In this document: piece by piece, positions 49,789-63,140 of the stretch
Layout: the number at the start of each line of letters is the position of its first letter
How positions within the stretch are numbered: position 1 is the stretch's first letter
Origin: a virus
Reading direction: 5' to 3' (one strand)
DNA: 64,000 nt
Virus record (IMG/VR): IMGVR_UViG_3300045988_123324
Location: 32,001 to 96,000 of that record
Notes under the pieces: model-generated
Told to the model about the DNA's origin: nothing
The model's database searches: none
The model's input: only the letters and a program-made list of their open reading frames with translations
Made by a program: the position numbers and the translations under genes

Positions 49789-51537
49789 TTAGAATCCTAC
49801 AATTCTTGTTGCATCACTTATTTTTGACTTTGGTTGCATATACATCACACCATACCTAAGTGCATCACAATTATGTATAATAATATCTGACGTAGTGACT
49901 GCAAAACAATGAGTATCTTCTACCTCCATATTATATACATCTTCGTTTTCATGTTTATCTATATGAACAAGTTTTGTATGTGATACTGATGTTTTAATCA
50001 AATCTTCTGTTGTAATGTCTTTTGCCTCTACCCAACCACGATTTACTGTCAAAATCCTATGATCTGGTGTAACATTCAATATGTCTCTTGTATCAAATAC
50101 AAGAGAAATTACTTCTGTATCTTTTCTTGTCATATGAACATCAAAGAATCTTCTCGTGCAACAATATCCATTTTCATCACATGTGATAAGTTCTCCTGTT
50201 TTTCCAACGAGATCTTCTATTGGTATATAACCTTCTGTTGTATTTATCAATGTATCACCAGTTATGCAGGCGTGATCGTCAACCTTACGAGGAAGATCGA
50301 CTCCCCTAAGTTGCGCTTTCTCATCCCAAACGTATGTCTGTAGCTCTCTTATGAGATTTTCACACTGTTCCTCTATCAATATTTTTCCTTGTCCCATGTC
50401 AGACGCAACTGTCCTTATTCCTGGGAGAACATCATTTATAGCATTTTTTGTTTTCATGTGAAATCTTCGTGCCTGTAGTTTAAAACTACTTGCAGAAGGG
50501 TCAACAACTACAACAATCTGTCTGTATGTTCTCTGTGTTAATTCTGTTTCTTCGTTTATAAAATCTCTTAGATCATTTACATATTCTATATCTGTTTTTT
50601 GTGCTTCTTGGTTTCCGTCCTCTTCTTTTACTGCGGCTCGTCCATCAAAATAATATTCTTTGCATACATATATAGTATTATCTATGGTCTTACCGAGCAG
50701 TAAAAATGCTGTCGGGTTTGCTGTGCCTATATCACAACACACACACCAATCTATTATATCTTCATACGGAATATCCGATTGCTTTATGACATGTTCTTTT
50801 TTCTTAAACATATCATATATCAATCCGTCTGCAACCACCCATTTGCCTTCAATGTATCGTTTTGCAAACACGCCACTAAAATTTTTCTTATATCTATCAA
50901 GAACATCTTGTGGTAATGATAAATTATCTTCCATATTAAAATGAACGTATAATCCATCTTTCTCTCTTAGTTTCTTTAATACATTCTTATAAAACCAATG
51001 ATGTGGAGAAGATGGGTTACAATTTATAAACAACTTTGCTCCATCAATAGATAAACGAGATACTGCTTGATTGTAAAAAGACTCTGGCATTAGAACTGCT
51101 TCGTCTAGCAAAAGACCTGCAAGTGTCATACCTTGAATGAGATCTTGTGATGATTCGTCCTTACCACCAAAGATAAAGAAGTAATTTACTACCTCACACT
51201 TAATTATTTCTATGTAGTTCTCTGATCTGTGTTCAATAACATCATAATCTAATGCCATAAGCATCTGTTTCAATGTCATAAGCACGTTTCTTCTGAACGA
51301 TCCTACTGATTTACCACACATCGCAGCATTTTGTTGATTAAACGTGTTCATCATAAACAAAACAAAGGATAACGCCATGCTTACTGTCTTTCCGCTGCGA
51401 ATCGCGCCGTCAGCAATAAGCATAAACGAATCATTTACTGGCGATTTTTCTGTCCACCAACTTAGAACCTTTAATTGCTTGTTTGAAAAGGGTTTAAATT
51501 TAAATGCTGATAATTTCAGTTTCTTGTTATTAGCCAT
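49789..51537 (-). CDS. terL: terminase large subunit containing a mini-intein
   Basis: Walker A ADGAIRSGKT, Walker B LLLDEA, nuclease motifs VVVVDPS and DDHA|..|CDALRY, split by a 133-aa Hint domain. Confidence 0.9.
   Translation of the reverse strand: MANNKKLKLSAFKFKPFSNKQLKVLSWWTEKSPVNDSFMLIADGAIRSGKTVSMALSFVLFMMNTFNQQNAAMCGKSVGSFRRNVLMTLKQMLMALDYDVIEHRSENYIEIIKCEVVNYFFIFGGKDESSQDLIQGMTLAGLLLDEAVLMPESFYNQAVSRLSIDGAKLFINCNPSSPHHWFYKNVLKKLREKDGLYVHFNMEDNLSLPQDVLDRYKKNFSGVFAKRYIEGKWVVADGLIYDMFKKKEHVIKQSDIPYEDIIDWCVCCDIGTANPTAFLLLGKTIDNTIYVCKEYYFDGRAAVKEEDGNQEAQKTDIEYVNDLRDFINEETELTQRTYRQIVVVVDPSASSFKLQARRFHMKTKNAINDVLPGIRTVASDMGQGKILIEEQCENLIRELQTYVWDEKAQLRGVDLPRKVDDHACITGDTLINTTEGYIPIEDLVGKTGELITCDENGYCCTRRFFDVHMTRKDTEVISLVFDTRDILNVTPDHRILTVNRGWVEAKDITTEDLIKTSVSHTKLVHIDKHENEDVYNMEVEDTHCFAVTTSDIIIHNCDALRYGVMYMQPKSKISDATRIVGF
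49870..50268 (-). mobile_element. mini-intein (133 aa, no endonuclease domain) in the terL nuclease motif
   Basis: Block A is CITGDTLI, block B is TPDHRILT, and the C-terminus is IIIHN followed by the +1 Cys. Excision restores VDDHA-CDALRYG. Confidence 0.85.
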
Positions 51538-52213: not shown

Positions 52214-52271
52214 TCTCCTTTCTAAATATTATATTTAATTATAACACAATTAATTTGTAAAGTCAATAGAA

Positions 52272-52302
52272 AACACAAAAAGCCCACCATTTCTGGTGAG
52301 CC
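52272..52302 (-). terminator. intrinsic terminator closing non-coding block A
   Basis: Minus strand reads GCTCACCAGAAATGGTGGGCTTTTTGTGTTTTC. Confidence 0.75.
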
Positions 52303-52990
52303 TTATGCGGAAAGGAGACAATTAAAATGAACTAGGACTTCATAAGACTTTCGCCTTACTCCGTCTGTGAGACTAGGCAGGTAAACGCGAATACCATTTT
52401 GCCTAGAGAACACACACGTCTGTCAAAGAACCACTTTATAAGATGTGGTAGAAATACTCCGTGTAAGTCATTTCTATAGCGGCTACATACCCAACGCGCT
52501 TTCCACATCCAGTAGCCATTGCAACAACACCATTATCTTGTTGCTCCCAATCTAGGTTGAAACCTTATCTTCTCTGTAGCAGGATTTTTGGATTTGCACC
52601 AAAGTCTTACAACTGGTTTTGTTGTATGTTCTTCTGTTAAACTAAATCCGCATGGTCGGGCATACAGGTAACGCTCCTGTGTCTTGGGTTTATAAGACCC
52701 CTGCACTCACTTTTGTGCTAATGCCCAATATTTCTTATGTAGCCCCACCCATCGCCCATAAGTTGAAGCCATTCTGACATTCTGCTTTGAGTTGTCAAGC
52801 ATGCGCTTCCTCCTGCTGTTTGTACTTTTGGCTTTTATTATCTAGGCACAGCCTACTCGCACATCATTTTGTTATATATCAGTATTTTGTTTTGCTGTTT
52901 GTGCCTACTCACAAGACGCTTATGGACACCTGCTGTGTTAGATTTGATTTCAGTTCAAATTTATAAATGATTTGCTGTCTGCGTCTTTAT
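52272..52990 (-). ncRNA. candidate large structured non-coding RNA A (approx. 0.7 kb)
   Basis: No ORF of 60 aa or more on either strand. Has its own promoter (52997-53025) and terminator. Long-range helices pair 52981-87 with 52913-19 (AAGACGC/GCGTCTT) and 52900-07 with 52843-50 (TAGGCACA/TGTGCCTA), plus CTAGGCA..TGCCTAG. GC-rich patches sit in AT-rich surroundings. Confidence 0.55.
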
Positions 52991-52996
52991 GTATAT

Positions 52997-53025
52997 ATCT
53001 TACCACATCTTTTTACTGTTGTCAA
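52997..53025 (-). promoter_or_regulatory. sigma-A-type promoter TTGACA-17-TAAGAT driving block A
   Basis: Minus strand reads TTGACA, then ACAGTAAAAAGATGTGG (17 nt), then TAAGAT. The -10 overlaps the stop codon of the upstream vWA gene. Confidence 0.6.
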
Positions 53026-54547
53026 CCCTAATTTCAAAAATTTTATCAACAATTTCGTATCGTGGTAAATTAAGTTGCTTTACAAGAGCCTTATACGGAT
53101 CTAGCTCACTTGACATCACCATATCCATAAGATTCTTGCTGAATCCACTGATAAGAATTACTCCATTTTCATTCTGCGTGAGAGGTACTGTGTTTGTCCT
53201 AGAATTTACGTTCCAGAAAACTAACTTTGGAAGTTTATATCCTTCCTTCTTGTACTTTTCCGCTATGGTTTCAAACAACGCTTTATTGCCCTTTTCATTG
53301 TAATATCCTTGCGCCATGTTGAACTCCATATCACTCACAATTAGTACAGTCTTTGGCATATCTTCTTGTGATACGCCATTCTTTACTGCGGTGTCAAGAA
53401 TAAGATCAAAAACACTCTCAATATTCGTACTTGAAATATCATCATATTTTGCAAGATATTTGAGCTTATCATGAAGATTATCAAGATGTGATACATCAAT
53501 CAACTTAGCCCATGAACTAAACGTGATGAACTTGTCTTTGAACGCTCCTTCATTATTCTCTGCACAATAAAGAGTGATTGCATCTGCAACTTCAAGTGCG
53601 GTAAGACCTGACTTATCAACTGGAACAGTCATAGATCCGCTACCATCACGAACAACAACAGTATCGCTAAACCCATTACACTTATCCTGTGCTTTCCATA
53701 GTTGCTCAAGTGTCTCGTCATAATCCTTATGCACGGCACACCATTCACCAAACTCTGCGTAAGCATGGACAATATCATGGAGAAACATAGCGTTTGCATT
53801 GATCTTTGTCTCACCCTTCTTGAGTGATTCAAGATACTTTTCTCTGCGCTCCCCATCATGACGCTCAAACGCATTACGATAGTTTACATTAGCCTTTGAT
53901 GGAACTGCTGAGTAGTCAATTTCTCCCCACTCATTTTCAGACATCTTACGCTCAACAACATCAATATATGCACGTAGTTCTGATAAAATCTTTCGATATT
54001 CGCTCTTTAGCATACCAAGATAATTGCAGATCATCTTTGCTTTTGCACAAGTTTCTTTACTGCTTGCATTGATGCTAGGAAGCCATTTTGCCAGGAGTGA
54101 TACAGATTTCTTATCATCCATATCTTGCATATCATTCACAAGTTGCTTGTCAATCTTATCTAAAATCATATTGCGAATAAAATCATTGTCTGTACGATAG
54201 GCAATATCTACGTAATCATCCCATCGACCATATTCCGCAATATCAACTTCCTTAATAAAGATATTGGCAAGATCAACATCATATGAGATAAGTTCAAGCA
54301 CAAAGTCTCTAAATGATTTACGCTCGCCGATTCCTTCTCGAACATCCCTAAGATAAAGAAGCCACTTGAGCGTCAGCTTTTCATCCTCATTGAGTGCTTG
54401 CTTAAACAAGTCCTTATCAATAGTCTTTCTAAATGAAGGTACTTGAAAATTTAGATCAACTAACTTACTTCCAGATGTTTTAAATCCAACAGCACCATTC
54501 TCTGTTACTGACTTTTCGTCATTCTCAATCATTTTCATAAAATCCAT
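53000..54547 (-). CDS. DUF2828-type protein: helical TROVE-like N-domain plus C-terminal vWA domain
   Basis: N-terminus ..SVTENGAVGFKTSGSKLVDLNF resembles the DUF2828/TROVE start. The C-terminus has a vWA MIDAS-like VVVRDGSGSM and later VLIVSDMEFN. Confidence 0.6.
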   Translation of the reverse strand: MDFMKMIENDEKSVTENGAVGFKTSGSKLVDLNFQVPSFRKTIDKDLFKQALNEDEKLTLKWLLYLRDVREGIGERKSFRDFVLELISYDVDLANIFIKEVDIAEYGRWDDYVDIAYRTDNDFIRNMILDKIDKQLVNDMQDMDDKKSVSLLAKWLPSINASSKETCAKAKMICNYLGMLKSEYRKILSELRAYIDVVERKMSENEWGEIDYSAVPSKANVNYRNAFERHDGERREKYLESLKKGETKINANAMFLHDIVHAYAEFGEWCAVHKDYDETLEQLWKAQDKCNGFSDTVVVRDGSGSMTVPVDKSGLTALEVADAITLYCAENNEGAFKDKFITFSSWAKLIDVSHLDNLHDKLKYLAKYDDISSTNIESVFDLILDTAVKNGVSQEDMPKTVLIVSDMEFNMAQGYYNEKGNKALFETIAEKYKKEGYKLPKLVFWNVNSRTNTVPLTQNENGVILISGFSKNLMDMVMSSELDPYKALVKQLNLPRYEIVDKIFEIRVDNSKKMW

Positions 54548-55268: not shown

Positions 55269-55552
55269 TGGTGGAGCTGACGGTATTGAAACCGTGTCCA
55301 GAGACTACTTTCATATAAACCTTATACACGCTTGTTGAAAAGGTTTTGGTAGATTAGGTCTACCAGCCCAATGACATAGTTGGTTTTATTAGACCACTAA
55401 CAACATAACCAACTAGAAAAGTTATTAGTAGTTGCTTTTAAGCCGCTAGGCTGTAAACTTCGTTTTCGTCAGTTCTTTTGTTTGCTGTTTTACTGGTACG
55501 CCCCAGACGTGAGTTTATATGTAGTTTTCCTCTGTCGAAACCTTTCAGCCCC
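55269..55552 (-). ncRNA. ssrA: tmRNA (transfer-messenger RNA), 284 nt
   Basis: 5' end GGGGCTGAAAGGTTTCGACAGAGG and 3' end GGACACGGTTTCAATACCGTCAGCTCCACCA, matching the canonical tmRNA ends. Internal frame GCA AAC AAA AGA ACT GAC GAA AAC GAA GTT TAC AGC CTA GCG GCT TAA (55438-55485) encodes ANKRTDENEVYSLAA. Confidence 0.85.
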
Positions 55553-55570: not shown

Positions 55571-56314
55571 TCACTGTGAAACATCTTTGTCAAGCATTTT
55601 TTCTGCTTTTTCTTTTGATTCTTTTATTATAGAAATATCTCTCTCGCAATCTGCCTTTATAAATCTTAGATTGATTCCATTTTTCTTGCAAGTCTTAATA
55701 AATTTTCTATATTCTATTTCACTCACAAGATTACTTCTCCCATTTATTGCTTCAACAATATAATCATCTAAGTAAAATACATCAACATTCTTTATTGGTG
55801 ATACATTCATATTTTGGCTATATGCAAAAGTATAAACAGCACACATCAAAGAAAGTTCAAGTGCGTTTATCTCTGTAATCTTAAAGAAAGGCTCTTGGTA
55901 TGTAATTTCTCCATTCTTAACAACTGTATAAGAACAAACATTCTTGTAATTGCCTAAATATATCTTTAAGTAATCTTCTTCAAAAAATAATCTAATTTTC
56001 TTTCTCTTCTTTCTCTCTATTATTCTATATTCCTCAGACAGTCTATATACTATATCTCTTTTGGCAAGACGATCTGTCATTAAAGAAAGTTGTTCTCTAA
56101 AATCTTCAAGACTATATGTATCTTTATACAAATTGCAATCGTGACAAGAAGGATTCAAGTTACTTTCATCATCAGTACCACCTTTACGTACTGCTAAGAT
56201 ATGATCTACTCTTAGATTTTTTCTATCTTCTATGAGTTTTCCACAGTATGCACACCTCTTACCATACTTCATCCACACATTCTGTCTTGTTTTATCTTGT
56301 ATTTTGCTTCGCAT
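55571..56314 (-). CDS. HNH endonuclease with an extra C-terminal domain
   Basis: CAYCGK....VDHILAVRKGGTDDESNLNPSCHDCNLYK HNH core at the N-terminus. The C-terminal 130 aa loosely resemble an RNase H-like layout (TEINALELSL..DVFYLDDYIV). That resemblance is weak. Confidence 0.7.
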   Translation of the reverse strand: MRSKIQDKTRQNVWMKYGKRCAYCGKLIEDRKNLRVDHILAVRKGGTDDESNLNPSCHDCNLYKDTYSLEDFREQLSLMTDRLAKRDIVYRLSEEYRIIERKKRKKIRLFFEEDYLKIYLGNYKNVCSYTVVKNGEITYQEPFFKITEINALELSLMCAVYTFAYSQNMNVSPIKNVDVFYLDDYIVEAINGRSNLVSEIEYRKFIKTCKKNGINLRFIKADCERDISIIKESKEKAEKMLDKDVSQ

Positions 56315-56354
56315 ATTTAACCTCTTTACATTGCAGACAATTTCTCTTTTATTG

Positions 56355-56384
56355 ATTATATCACAAGGTAAATGCTTCTGTCAA
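56355..56384 (-). promoter_or_regulatory. sigma-A-type promoter TTGACA-18-TATAAT
   Basis: Minus strand reads TTGACA, then GAAGCATTTACCTTGTGA (18 nt), then TATAAT, upstream of the HNH gene. Confidence 0.6.
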
Positions 56385-56469
56385 CACATATTTTCCATTA
56401 TCTGTCAAGTAGGTATAGTTATCCTTAAACCAACATACATATATTTTTATTTCATATTATTAAACTCCT

Positions 56470-57100
56470 AACATCGTTTACGTACTTTGTACTTCAACTC
56501 GTTAGGGCTACACAAACCTCGTTTGCTCCGCACTCTCTTCTCTATTTATTTTCTGTATTTTTTTTTCTCTGTGTAACTTAACTTTTTAGGTAAACCCTCA
56601 ATGGGAATTTCACTAGATTTAGGCTATTAGAGGGCATAGTACACCACCTAGGAAACAAAAAAGACGCTAAAAATGGACGCACGAATACACCGCAAAATGC
56701 AGTGTAATTACGATCCATAATTAGTTCTTAGTTGTTTCTCTAGGTGTCCTAACATACATACATAATCAATGAGATTTCACTGAGTTTGAGTATATCGTCA
56801 GGGTTCTGTTTTTACAGAACTAGACTTACTGTTAAGCATTTAAGCAGTCCTCATGCCAGTAAGCCGACCACCCTACCGAAGTAGCCTGCTCCCAACCTAA
56901 CCGATTATAGCCGTTACCGCAGCATATTATTTACATAATATGTCCTCTGTACGCCAGAGGAAGTCCCCATTTTAAGTGTCGCGGCTGGGATAGACCGCGT
57001 GTCCGTATGTCTTACCCTCCAGTTTAGATTTTATCTTACTATATCACTAGACCCATTAGCGAACATAGCCTTGCTAGGTAAGCCCCAATATTTAGTTTGT
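56470..57100 (-). ncRNA. candidate large structured non-coding RNA B (0.6 kb or more; 3' end undefined)
   Basis: No ORF of 60 aa or more on either strand. Promoter at 57107-57135 points into it. Hairpins: CCTCTG/CAGAGG (56944-60), CATATTAT/ATAATATG (56923-42), CTAC-UUCG-GTAG (56873-84), GTTCTG/CAGAAC (56803-20). A long-range helix pairs 56641-56 with 56734-47. GC-rich relative to its flanks. Confidence 0.5.
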
Positions 57101-57106
57101 ATATGC

Positions 57107-57135
57107 ATTATATCACAGAAAAAACCGCTTGTCAA
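57107..57135 (-). promoter_or_regulatory. sigma-A-type promoter TTGACA-17-TATAAT driving block B (divergent partner of the early promoter)
   Basis: Minus strand reads TTGACA, then AGCGGTTTTTTCTGTGA (17 nt), then TATAAT. Confidence 0.65.
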
Positions 57136-57168
57136 CAGTTTTTTAAAATTTTTTTTATTAAATTAGTA

Positions 57169-57197
57169 TTGACAAACTGATTTTATTTTGATATAAT
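57169..57197 (+). promoter_or_regulatory. sigma-A-type promoter TTGACA-17-TATAAT (first plus-strand early promoter)
   Basis: TTGACA, then AACTGATTTTATTTTGA (17 nt), then TATAAT. Its -35 lies 34 bp from the -35 of the divergent promoter. Confidence 0.7.
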
Positions 57198-57268
57198 GAA
57201 CAACAATAAGTGCTGTCCGCAAAGTATGATAGCACAGAAGGTAAATTTTGTCAATAGTAGGAGGAAAT

Positions 57269-57502
57269 ATGAAACAGAAATATAGGACGGCAATCTACAA
57301 TATTGCACACAACATTCCAGACAGCCTAAAAGAAAATGAAGAATATGTGCATCTTATTGCAAGACATTTAATGAAAAGACTTTATGATTTAACGGATATT
57401 AGTTATATATTTGTTGTTATTAATGAATTAGCAAATGGAACAAAGCATAAAAAGGATAAAGAAGTTATAAGACACTTTTATACTGAGTTAAGTGTGATAT
57501 AA
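57269..57502 (+). CDS. hypothetical early protein
   Basis: ATG preceded by TAGGAGGAAAT. 77 aa. Confidence 0.55.
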   Translation: MKQKYRTAIYNIAHNIPDSLKENEEYVHLIARHLMKRLYDLTDISYIFVVINELANGTKHKKDKEVIRHFYTELSVI

Positions 57503-62631: not shown

Positions 62632-62634
62632 ATT

Positions 62635-62956
62635 ACAGATAAAAGTAAAATACAAAAATTCAAAAAATTATAGAAAGCCTACCAAAACAATTAGAATGTC
62701 ATTAACAGTAAAAAGTTTTTCTCAAACTTGAAAAAATTATAGTGAGTGGATATTACTGCTAAGAACACAGCAAAATATTTAATGGTATTGACAGCAAAAG
62801 TCAGTTTTCAGATCTCAAAAAATTAGAGAGAGTGGATGGTTTAGACGTGTCAACACAGTAAAAAGTTTTTTTCTAAATACCAAAAAATTATAGAGAGTAT
62901 ATTAAAGGTATATACAGATAAAACTCTTTTTCAAATTTTCAAAAAATTATAGAGAG
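62635..62956 (+). repeat. array of five bipartite direct repeats: ACAG(W)AAAAG box, then 25-26 nt later the core CAAAAAATTATAGAGAG
   Basis: Cores at 62661-77, 62730-46, 62816-32, 62881-97 and 62940-56. ACAG boxes at 62635, 62705, 62791, 62855 and 62914. Core-to-core spacing is 69, 86, 65 and 59 nt. No ORFs. Confidence 0.8.
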
Positions 62957-63140
62957 CCTAGAGATACCCCACAGCCGACCCAAACTTGAATCCTACCCCC
63001 TCCTCCTTCATGTATGGAGAGCGCACCGGCTGCGTTCATGATTGACGCAAGAGCTGCTGCGTTCGTGAATGAGAAAAGCTGCGGCTGATTCGTTTTGTCT
63101 GACAATTTATCTATGGGCGGGCAGGGAATTTTCAGACAAT

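What the first reader, a model, noticed from the sequence alone, without database searches (positions are those of the whole stretch)
56400..57105. Block B: second large ORF-free, helix-rich segment driven by the divergent partner of the early promoter
A TTGACA-17-TATAAT promoter (57107-57135) fires leftward into about 650 nt with no ORF. This segment is the most GC-rich stretch of the phage part of the window.

Structure seen by eye:
- a C(UUCG)G-closed tetraloop hairpin
- three perfect 6-8-bp hairpins
- a bulged long-range helix (56641-56 with 56734-47) enclosing about 80 nt.

No terminator is visible before the next promoter (56355-84). The RNA may therefore be processed out of a longer transcript that continues into the HNH, tmRNA and tRNA genes. 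I found no obvious sequence similarity to block A.
Basis: partly seen in the sequence, partly recalled or inferred. Interest (0 to 1): 0.7.

Follow-up and report, generated by a model that had tools for sequence, protein, structure and literature searches.

The report
New large structured phage RNA gene
This stretch encodes a large, intricately folded non-coding RNA (about 460-700 nt) that matches no catalogued RNA family. It sits next to the tmRNA and tRNA genes of a small group of uncultivated phages, the same genomic setting as the enigmatic ROOL and GOLLD RNAs.

Summary
Window 57100 to about 56405 (minus strand) has no conserved ORF and lies behind a perfect TTGACA-17-TGnTATAAT promoter. 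It folds far better than shuffled sequence on the minus strand only (z -9.8 against -2.7).

I found 13 further copies in metagenomic phage contigs, in three forms: about 700-nt long, about 430-nt short, and one very divergent. All have the same promoter.

On a 12-sequence alignment, 26 of 71 proposed base pairs change on both sides (shuffles 14.4 +/- 2.3, 0 of 500 reach it; slid controls 5-10). A 5-bp pseudoknot is kept in all 14 copies in four sequence versions. A 27-44-bp hairpin is kept with unrelated sequences.

Rfam 15 gives no match, even at E up to 10, so it is not ROOL, GOLLD, HEARO, RNase P or an intron by that test.

It is therefore a real, uncatalogued structured RNA class. A tmRNA gene follows it in 11 of 12 loci with enough downstream sequence, usually with tRNA genes. 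Function is unknown. My best guess is a trans-acting folded RNA of the ROOL/GOLLD kind, linked to the phage's translation-RNA island.

The parts
57107..57135 (-). Promoter of the RNA: TTGACA, 17 nt, TG-extended TATAAT, with an A/T-rich stretch upstream.
   Evidence: The same perfect promoter (spacer 17 or 18, TGn before the -10) precedes all 12 aligned homologues. L040 and L041 also carry TTGACA and TATAAT.
56405..57100 (-). Predicted RNA, long form, about 696 nt. The 5' end is inferred from the promoter (+1 near 57100). The 3' end is not defined; conservation fades near 56405-56395.
   Evidence: Alignments. Folding z -9.8. No Rfam family.
57005..57100 (-). Variable 5' arm. It comes in at least three unrelated versions among close relatives, each with its own hairpins. 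In the window, AGGCUAU (57065-57071) can pair with AUAGCCU (56621-56627).
   Evidence: module swapping. (pairing in the MFE fold; inferred, without covariation).
56965..56999 (-). H-type pseudoknot. Hairpin P1 is CGCGGU/GCCGCG (56994-56999 with 56980-56985). Its loop UCCCA (56986-56990) pairs with UGGGG (56965-56969).
   Evidence: all 5 pseudoknot pairs change on both sides; kept in 14 of 14 copies in four versions (UCCCA/UGGGG, CUUAC/GUAGG, GCUGA/UCAGC, GCUGU/ACAGC).
56923..56960 (-). Two variable hairpins (CCUCUG-GCGUA-CAGAGG and CAUAUUAU-GUAA-AUAAUAUG). Relatives have other hairpins at the same place.
   Evidence: different sequences, hairpins retained; for coordinates.
56888..56920 (-). 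Most conserved segment, GCGGUAACGGCUAUAAUCGGUUAGGUUGGGAGC. It is nearly invariant, with a small internal stem (AAUC/GGUU inside GCU/AGC).
   Evidence: Pair counts (mostly invariant, so uninformative on pairing).
56873..56884 (-).
   Evidence: all 4 pairs change on both sides somewhere in the family, for example CAGC/GCUG in L001.
56823..56865 (-). P2 (GGCUUACUG/CAGUAAGUC) enclosing P2a (GCAU/AUGC), with the conserved loop GAGGACUGCUUAA.
   Evidence: P2 is 100% paired with 5 of 9 pairs changed on both sides; P2a has 2 of 4. One search is similar.
56803..56820 (-). Hairpin H3, GUUCUGU-AAAA-ACAGAAC, preceded by a near-invariant GUCUAG. The loop is AAAA, AGAA or UGAA in 13 of 14 copies; the divergent L040 has ACAUAAA.
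   Evidence: 100% paired, 3 of 7 pairs changed on both sides..
56749..56802 (-). Variable insert between H3 and P5, with different hairpins in different subtypes.
56643..56748 (-). P5, a long irregular hairpin (40 bp in the window).
   Evidence: a 27-44-bp hairpin in all 14 copies, with an unrelated sequence in L040; 6 pairs changed on both sides.
56575..56642 (-). Segment after P5. GUACU (56638-56642) may close the core by pairing with GGAC (57001-57004). The rest can pair with the 5' arm.
   Evidence: closing helix 94% paired, variation on one side only: weak. (MFE fold).
56531..56574 (-). Purine-rich linker (84% A+G), predicted unpaired. Its length and sequence vary between long forms, and it is absent from short forms.
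   Evidence: composition; alignment, no consensus pairs.
56405..56530 (-). Conserved 3' tail of the long forms. It includes the hairpin GCAAAC-GAG-GUUUGU (56512-56526), GUU-GAA-GUAC-AAA-GUAC-GUA-AAC (56476-56498) and the conserved UUUAAGGAUAACUAU.
   Evidence: Alone it folds no better than shuffles. No long-range covariation was found.
56355..56384 (-). Next promoter (TTGACA-18-TATAAT), serving the HNH gene. It marks the outer limit of the RNA gene in this window.

Best explanation
Block B is a gene for a large non-coding structured RNA of a class not in Rfam.

How it is made and folds:
- Host sigma-70-type RNA polymerase would start at a perfect extended -10 promoter. This promoter lies back to back with the early-gene promoter, so the RNA should be made from the first minutes of infection.
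- The transcript folds into a core of about 460 nt: a swappable 5' arm, an H-type pseudoknot, two variable hairpins, a near-invariant junction, a UUCG hairpin, a P2/P2a-H3 junction, a variable insert and a long hairpin P5.
- In the window's clade, a purine-rich unpaired linker and a conserved 3' tail of about 125 nt follow.

What I think it does:
- It most likely works in trans as a folded RNA particle (scaffold, decoy or assembly, possibly multimeric).
- It occupies the same biological niche as ROOL and GOLLD: phage-borne, beside the phage's tmRNA and tRNA genes. That suggests a role in how the phage handles translation RNAs.

Shown: promoter, strand, conservation, base-pair covariation, pseudoknot, genomic association.

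Inferred: that it is transcribed and stable, where it ends, that it acts in trans, and what it acts on.
For: Real structured RNA:
- MFE z is -9.8 on the minus strand against -2.7 on the plus strand.
- I found 13 homologues in three forms.
- On alignment A5, 93.2% of cells are paired, against 83.7% in shuffles and 33-44% when partners are slid.
- On A5, 26 of 71 pairs change on both sides, against 14.4 +/- 2.3 in shuffles (0 of 500 reach it) and 5-10 in slid controls.
- A covariance-model alignment of the core gives 15 of 31 such pairs against 7.6 +/- 1.8.
- The pseudoknot is kept in 14 of 14 copies in four versions.
- P5 is kept as a 27-44-bp hairpin with unrelated sequences.

Strand:
- 91 of 848 helix cells are G.U. 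Pairing falls from 93.2% to 82.4% if the other strand is read.

Own gene:
- A perfect promoter precedes all 12 aligned copies.

Not coding:
- The 43-46-aa ORF inside P5 is missing in L028, L030 and L029. It is hit by a 1-nt indel between the window and L027.
- No Pfam or PHROGs match.

Niche:
- A tmRNA gene lies downstream in 11 of 12 loci with enough sequence, and tRNA genes were found downstream in every one of those loci except L031.
- ROOL and GOLLD are described as phage or prophage RNAs near tRNA islands, with an internal disordered linker (PMC5737381, PMC12286853).

Not tied in cis to one gene:
- The next gene differs between loci: an unrelated 124-aa or 135-aa ORF, RNase H, RlaP, or an HNH gene with its own promoter.
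Against: - There are no expression data of any kind.
- Only 14 loci from few lineages are known, so several helices are invariant and untestable.
- No terminator or defined 3' end is visible.
- The 3' third is not thermodynamically structured on its own and shows no long-range covariation.
- The functional analogy to ROOL and GOLLD rests on context and general architecture only. Neither their covariance models nor direct comparison with ROOL env-120 shows any similarity.
- The shuffle control ignores relatedness of the sequences. The slid controls do not have that weakness.
Confidence: 0.55

Rival explanations
1. Cis-acting leader. The folded RNA is the 5' part of the leftward operon transcript and controls it, for example by processive antitermination in the manner of HK022 put RNA, or as a giant regulatory 5' UTR.
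For: - No terminator lies between the RNA and downstream genes.
- In most loci an ORF with a ribosome-binding site starts a few tens of nucleotides after the conserved RNA.
- The RNA heads the leftward module that runs towards the terminase.
Against: - The downstream gene is different and non-homologous between loci.
- In this window a new perfect promoter follows directly, and the tmRNA and tRNA-Leu have their own as well.
- A size of 430-700 nt with a pseudoknot and multi-helix junctions is far beyond known antitermination RNAs (my knowledge of put and EAR RNAs).
Confidence: 0.15
2. Ribozyme or RNA-processing cofactor for the adjacent tmRNA and tRNA transcripts, for example an RNase P-like activity brought by the phage.
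For: - A tmRNA gene lies downstream of the RNA in 11 of 12 loci.
- The L038 and L039 relatives lack both the RNA and a tmRNA in this region.
- By eye, short motifs recall RNase P conserved regions: ACAGAACCC, GGUAAGGGUG in L029, and GAGGA. This is a lead from memory only.
Against: - RNase P models, and every other Rfam ribozyme model, give nothing at E up to 10 on three divergent members.
- The topology differs. There is no long-range P4-type pseudoknot joining such motifs. ACAGAAC is simply the 3' strand of hairpin H3.
- L040 has the RNA but no tmRNA in the 5 kb downstream.
Confidence: 0.08
3. Replication element. A transcript that primes or opens the phage origin (in the manner of ColE1 RNA II), or a DNA-level origin or packaging structure.
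For: - It lies at the divergent promoter region where GC skew changes sign.
- Relatives without the RNA have about 700 nt of AT-rich repeats with a long inverted repeat at the same place.
Against: - The skew change coincides with the switch in gene orientation.
- Compensatory changes, a pseudoknot and strand-specific G.U pairs point to selection on a folded RNA, not on DNA.
- An iteron-like array of five repeats lies elsewhere in the window, at 62634-62961.
Confidence: 0.05
4. Decayed protein gene, or neutral intergenic DNA that happens to fold.
For: A 43-46-aa ORF recurs inside P5 in several copies.
Against: - That ORF is absent from three members and is frameshifted by a 1-nt indel between close relatives.
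- No Pfam or PHROGs hit.
- Covariation is far above controls.
- A perfect promoter is conserved in all copies.
Confidence: 0.02

Closest known systems
ROOL RNA (Rfam RF03087)
   Same: - Large: ROOL averages 581 nt, and env-120 is 659 nt. Here the RNA is 430-710 nt.
- Many helices and at least one pseudoknot.
- Encoded in phages next to tRNA genes.
- An internal linker without conserved sequence or structure (here purine-rich, 56531-56574).
- No associated protein and no known function (PMC5737381, PMC12286853).
   Different: - No covariance-model match at E up to 10 on three divergent members.
- No sequence similarity to env-120.
- I found no covarying terminal helix joining the 5' and 3' ends, whereas ROOL pairs position 1 with position 659.
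- One pseudoknot is supported here, against three for ROOL.
- Oligomerisation is untested.
- The family is far rarer.
GOLLD RNA (Rfam RF01998)
   Same: - Phage-borne and near tRNA islands.
- One part universally conserved and another part variable (here a conserved core with a swappable 5' arm).
- A linker region (PMC12286853).
   Different: - No covariance-model match.
- Here the variable part is the first 100 nt or so, plus inserts, and the 3' tail is optional.
- GOLLD exceeds 800 nt.
- tRNAs embedded in the RNA are seen in the window's other ORF-free block A relatives, not in block B.
HEARO / IscB omega RNA (Rfam RF02033)
   Same: A structured RNA of a few hundred nucleotides lying upstream of a gene with an HNH domain in this window.
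   Different: - No covariance-model match.
- The HNH protein is 247 aa with only an N-terminal HNH domain and no RuvC.
- That gene has its own promoter.
- It is not the adjacent gene in most homologous loci.
Bacterial RNase P RNA (RF00010 / RF00011)
   Same: Comparable size of the core (about 430-460 nt), a position next to RNase P substrates, and a few short look-alike motifs.
   Different: No covariance-model match, and a different helix topology with no P4-type long-range pseudoknot.
phi29 pRNA (packaging RNA)
   Same: A phage-encoded non-coding RNA made from a strong promoter and acting as a folded, multimeric particle.
   Different: pRNA is about 120-174 nt (my knowledge). No Rfam match here. 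There is no evidence of any link to the packaging motor.

Membership tests
ROOL | Scores against the Rfam ROOL covariance model | tested here: not met
   No hit at gathering score. No hit at E up to 10 on the window, L029 and L001 copies.
ROOL | Sequence relatedness to a verified member (env-120) | tested here: not met
   Short-word blastn gives only 11-14-nt chance words. nhmmer with the family profile gives no hit at E up to 10.
ROOL | Phage or prophage location near tRNA genes | tested here: met
   A tmRNA gene lies downstream in 11 of 12 loci, usually with tRNA genes beside it.
ROOL | Homo-oligomeric nanocage | not testable with these tools
   Needs native gels, mass photometry or cryo-EM of the transcript.
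GOLLD | Scores against the Rfam GOLLD covariance model (conserved 3' region) | tested here: not met
GOLLD | Phage location near tRNA islands | tested here: met
HEARO / IscB omega RNA | Covariance-model match, and an adjacent IscB-type protein with both RuvC and HNH domains | tested here: not met
   No model hit. The neighbouring protein has an HNH domain only and is not conserved at that position.
RNase P RNA | Covariance-model match, and a P4 pseudoknot formed by conserved regions CR-I and CR-V | tested here: not met
   No model hit. The covarying helices define a different topology.
Group I / group II intron | Covariance-model match and flanking exons of an interrupted gene | tested here: not met
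   No model hit. The element starts at its own promoter and interrupts no gene.
Structured non-coding RNA (generic) | Base pairs maintained by compensatory change, above controls, on one strand | tested here: met

The most novel reading that the evidence does not exclude
Block B is a third, evolutionarily independent class of large phage RNA that works as an RNA-only machine. It would be either a self-assembling multimer like the ROOL and GOLLD cages, or a catalytic RNA acting on the phage's own tmRNA and tRNAs. Its near-constant pairing with a phage tmRNA would then point for the first time to what such RNAs are for: taking over or protecting translation during infection.
Probability: 0.15. 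Interest if true: 0.85.

Novelty: new variant of a known kind. Interest (0 to 1): 0.62.

Why it matters
- Bacterial and phage non-coding RNAs larger than about 400 nt with complex conserved folds are rare, only about a dozen classes. They have repeatedly turned out to be ribozymes or remarkable assemblies. ROOL and GOLLD were shown in 2025 to form RNA-only cages, yet still have no known function.
- An unrelated RNA in the same niche (a phage tRNA/tmRNA island) would be an independent handle on that open question.
- Three natural size variants define a minimal core of about 430 nt.
- The tight linkage to a phage tmRNA suggests concrete experiments on trans-translation and tRNA handling.
- The RNA is also small and modular enough for structural work.

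Tried and rejected
**Searches that found nothing**
- Similar DNA in 50,697 GenBank phage records, by both blastn and megablast.
- Looser DNA patterns in IMG/VR. They returned only the same three contigs.
- Supplementary data of the 10,006-candidate viral RNA catalogue (PMC10690425). These are not held as text, so I could not check whether this RNA is already listed there anonymously.

**Hits rejected as chance**
- Most of the 18-mer hits in metagenome and genome collections. L021 lies inside a 574-aa ORF, and the others match only 20-26 nt.

**Homology to known RNAs, rejected**
- ROOL, GOLLD, HEARO, RNase P and intron membership, by covariance models and by direct comparison with ROOL env-120.
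- RNase P look-alike motifs seen by eye, rejected on topology.

**Links to neighbouring genes, rejected**
- A functional pair with the downstream ORF. The 124-aa and 135-aa ORFs are unrelated and have no informative domains.
- An RNA-guided HNH nuclease. The protein has an HNH domain only and is not syntenic.

**Structure proposals dropped**
- A helix GGGU/ACCC closing the P2-H3 junction, and an alternative register for H1 proposed by RNAalifold. Both conflict with better-supported hairpins.
- Long-range pairing of the 3' tail with the core. No covarying stack was found.

**Analyses that were uninformative**
- RNA-tmRNA duplex prediction. Unrestricted duplexfold gives meaningless full-length duplexes.
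- An automatic hairpin picker for a 14-sequence helix table. It failed and was replaced by the covariance-model alignment.

Full report
**1. What is in the window**

Between the HNH gene (55571-56314, minus strand) and the first rightward early gene (57269-57502) lies about 950 nt with no ORF longer than 46 aa on the minus strand or 55 aa on the plus strand. None of those short ORFs matches Pfam or PHROGs.

A perfect TTGACA-17-TATAAT promoter with a TG extension lies at 57135..57107 on the minus strand. It is back to back with the perfect rightward promoter at 57169-57197. The next perfect leftward promoter is at 56384..56355. Between the two leftward promoters the scan finds no credible terminator.

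- the CUAC-UUCG-GUAG hairpin (56873-56884);
- three perfect hairpins of 6, 8 and 7 bp (56944-56960, 56923-56942, 56803-56820);
- the bulged long-range helix, which is the base of a 105-nt hairpin (56643-56748).

The minus strand folds to -211 kcal/mol against -167 +/- 4.5 for dinucleotide shuffles (z -9.8). The plus strand gives z -2.7.

One statement is wrong. The segment is not the GC-richest phage stretch; its peak is 0.447 against 0.473-0.49 at three other places.

**2. Not a known family**

Rfam 15 at gathering thresholds finds only the tmRNA (55269-55552) and tRNAs in the window. A permissive scan at E up to 10 over 56200-57300, and over two divergent homologues, returns only sub-threshold noise, mostly miRNA-precursor models matching the long hairpin.

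ROOL, GOLLD, HEARO, RNase P, introns, pRNA and Y RNA are therefore not supported.

I took the ROOL env-120 sequence from the supplement of PMC12286853. It shows no similarity by short-word blastn or by nhmmer with the family profile.

**3. Relatives**

GenBank phages hold nothing similar. I found homologues by three routes:
- through the neighbouring DUF2828 protein;
- with invariant DNA words scanned in IMG/VR, metagenomes and genomes (chance hits removed);
- through the neighbouring HTH_36 early protein and the contigs that encode its relatives.

This gave 14 distinct-locus copies including the window, and 13 distinct sequences, in contigs of up to 140 kb. They fall into three forms:
- long, 654-713 nt (the window's clade, 59-97% identical among themselves);
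- short, about 430 nt (L029, L025, L041; about 50% identical to the long forms and lacking the last 270 nt or so);
- one very divergent copy (L040, 423 nt).

Phages whose HTH protein is about 48% identical (L038, L039) have AT-rich repeats instead and no such RNA.

The family is rare. Three looser patterns found nothing more in IMG/VR.

**4. It is a structured RNA read from the minus strand**

All 12 aligned copies keep a perfect TTGACA-17/18-TGnTATAAT promoter.

I derived a structure from RNAalifold and a covariation scan and counted it on the 12-sequence alignment A5:

| Measure | Observed | Shuffles | Slid partners |
|---|---|---|---|
| Cells forming a standard pair | 93.2% | 83.7% | 33-44% |
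| Pairs changed on both sides (of 71) | 26 | 14.4 +/- 2.3 (0 of 500 reach it) | 5-10 |

The best-supported helices are:
- P2: 9 bp, 100% paired, 5 pairs changed on both sides;
- H3: 7 bp, 100% paired, 3 pairs changed on both sides;
- P1 and P2a;
- a 5-bp pseudoknot between the P1 loop and a segment 10-14 nt downstream, in which all five pairs change on both sides.

The pseudoknot is present in all 14 copies in four sequence versions.

A covariance model of the junction-H1-P2-P2a-H3 region realigned all copies. It gave 15 of 31 pairs changed on both sides against 7.6 +/- 1.8 in shuffles. The alignment is fitted to the model, so it leans towards the structure, but the slid controls remain at 1-7.

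P5 folds as a 27-44-bp hairpin in every copy, with a completely different sequence in L040.

G.U pairs make up 91 of 848 helix cells, and three positions are G.U in all 12 aligned sequences. Read from the other strand, pairing drops to 82.4%.

The recurrent 43-46-aa ORF inside P5 is absent from three members. It is broken by a 1-nt indel between the window and its 82%-identical relative L027. A decayed gene is excluded as far as sequence can tell.

**5. Anatomy (window coordinates, minus strand)**

| Element | Coordinates | Note |
|---|---|---|
| Promoter | 57135-57107 | +1 inferred near 57100 |
| Variable 5' arm | 57100-57005 | three unrelated versions among close relatives |
| P1 and pseudoknot | 56999-56965 | |
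| Two variable hairpins | 56960-56923 | |
| Near-invariant junction | 56920-56888 | GCGGUAACGGCUAUAAUCGGUUAGGUUGGGAGC |
| H1 | 56884-56873 | |
| P2/P2a | 56865-56823 | conserved loop GAGGACUGCUUAA |
| H3 | 56820-56803 | preceded by GUCUAG |
| Variable insert | 56802-56749 | |
| P5 | 56748-56643 | |
| Weak closing helix | 56638-56642 with 57001-57004 | GUACU with GGAC |

In the long forms only, three more parts follow:
- a segment that can pair with the 5' arm (56637-56575);
- an 84%-purine unpaired linker (56574-56531);
- a conserved tail with small hairpins (56530-56405).

The core of 463 nt carries the thermodynamic signal (z -7.4). The last 233 nt alone do not (z +0.17). I found no covarying long-range contact for the tail. 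The 3' end is undefined.

**6. Context**

In the window the leftward order is:
- RNA;
- HNH gene with its own promoter;
- tmRNA with its own promoter;
- tRNA-Thr, tRNA-Arg and tRNA-Leu;
- a DUF2828/DUF7788 protein with weak Ro60-vWA similarity;
- a second ORF-free block;
- terminase.

A tmRNA gene lies downstream of the RNA in 11 of 12 loci with enough sequence. That count includes the short-form locus L041. tRNA genes accompany it in all of these except L031. L040 has a tRNA but no tmRNA. L038 and L039 lack both the RNA and a tmRNA in this region.

The gene immediately downstream is not conserved. It is an unrelated 124-aa or 135-aa ORF, RNase H, RlaP, or HNH.

**7. Interpretation**

The sequence evidence establishes a promoter-equipped, strand-specific, covarying, pseudoknotted RNA of 430-700 nt. 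I put about 0.9 on that.

Its function is not established. The closest known things are ROOL and GOLLD. Both are large phage or prophage RNAs near tRNA islands, with variable modules and an internal disordered linker. They have no protein partner and no known function, and were recently shown to form RNA-only cages (PMC5737381, PMC12286853).

Block B shares the niche and the general architecture, but fails every membership test I could run. I therefore file it as working like that kind, not as a member.

I commit, at about 0.55 overall, to a trans-acting folded RNA connected with the phage's translation-RNA island.

The rivals are:
- a cis-acting leader or antiterminator (0.15), weakened by the non-conserved downstream gene and the fresh promoter;
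- a ribozyme for tmRNA and tRNA processing (0.08), attractive by context but unsupported by models and topology;
- an origin or primer RNA (0.05);
- a decayed gene (0.02).

**8. Novelty and caveats**

I found no Rfam family and no similar GenBank phage. No paper in the held library describes it. I could not check the anonymous candidates of PMC10690425, because its supplements are not held.

The family is small and from uncultivated phages. Several helices are invariant and therefore untested. There is no expression evidence.

Noticed in passing
It carries a tRNA-like element at 52656-52727 (Rfam tRNA 47 bits, odd T-loop, not called by ARAGORN). In L002 exactly this spot holds four ordinary tRNA genes, reminiscent of tRNAs in the GOLLD linker. 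The block ends in a hairpin plus U-run near 52270-52302 and matches no Rfam family.
   Followed up: partly
window 55269-55552 (-), and tmRNA genes in L001, L002, L005, L013, L019, L026-L028, L030, L031, L041: A phage-encoded tmRNA was found by Rfam (79.5 bits) but not by ARAGORN. Relatives carry two size classes, about 284-288 nt and about 357 nt, and L041's is about 311 nt. It co-occurs with the block-B RNA in 11 of 12 loci.
   Followed up: partly
window 53000-54547 (-): A 515-aa protein with DUF2828 and DUF7788 domains and a weak Ro60-vWA match lies between the tRNA genes and block A. Relatives below 37% identity occur in 711 GenBank phage records; one is annotated 'RNA-binding protein'. A Ro-like protein flanked by a tRNA-like RNA recalls bacterial Ro/Y-RNA systems. 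That is my recollection and was not tested.
   Followed up: no
window 62634-62961, and from about 62960 onward: Five direct repeats of about 57 nt, each ending in AAAAAATTATAGAGAG-like words, are followed by an abrupt rise in GC from about 0.3 to above 0.5. This may be an iteron-like origin, a genome end, or an assembly join with foreign DNA.
   Followed up: partly
window 57135-57107, 56384-56355, 55593-55565, 54864-54836 (all -), and 57254-57226 (-): Each RNA gene and the HNH gene has its own perfect or near-perfect TTGACA-17/18-TATAAT promoter with a TG extension. A further leftward promoter-like site lies inside the early-gene leader.
   Followed up: no
window 49789-51537 (-); L031:4588-6348: The terminase large subunit carries intein/HINT-like matches below Pfam's curated cut-offs. 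In L031 the PhoH homologue carries an intein with a LAGLIDADG domain. Together with the movable HNH genes, this suggests heavy traffic of selfish elements in this phage group.
   Followed up: no
L038:3001-4000 and L039:3001-4000 (minus strand): Relatives without the RNA have, at the equivalent divergent-promoter region, about 700 nt of AT-rich repeats. These enclose a long inverted repeat (TATATACGAACGTAGTGAGTATA ... TATACTCACTACGTTCGTATATA), possibly an origin.
   Followed up: no
window 55571-56314 (-) compared with L001:7862-8976, L026:3816-4543, L028:496-1718: The window lacks the 124-140-aa ORF that follows the RNA in most relatives. Instead it has a 247-aa HNH protein with its own promoter. 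HNH genes of 118-283 aa sit at varying positions in relatives.
   Followed up: partly
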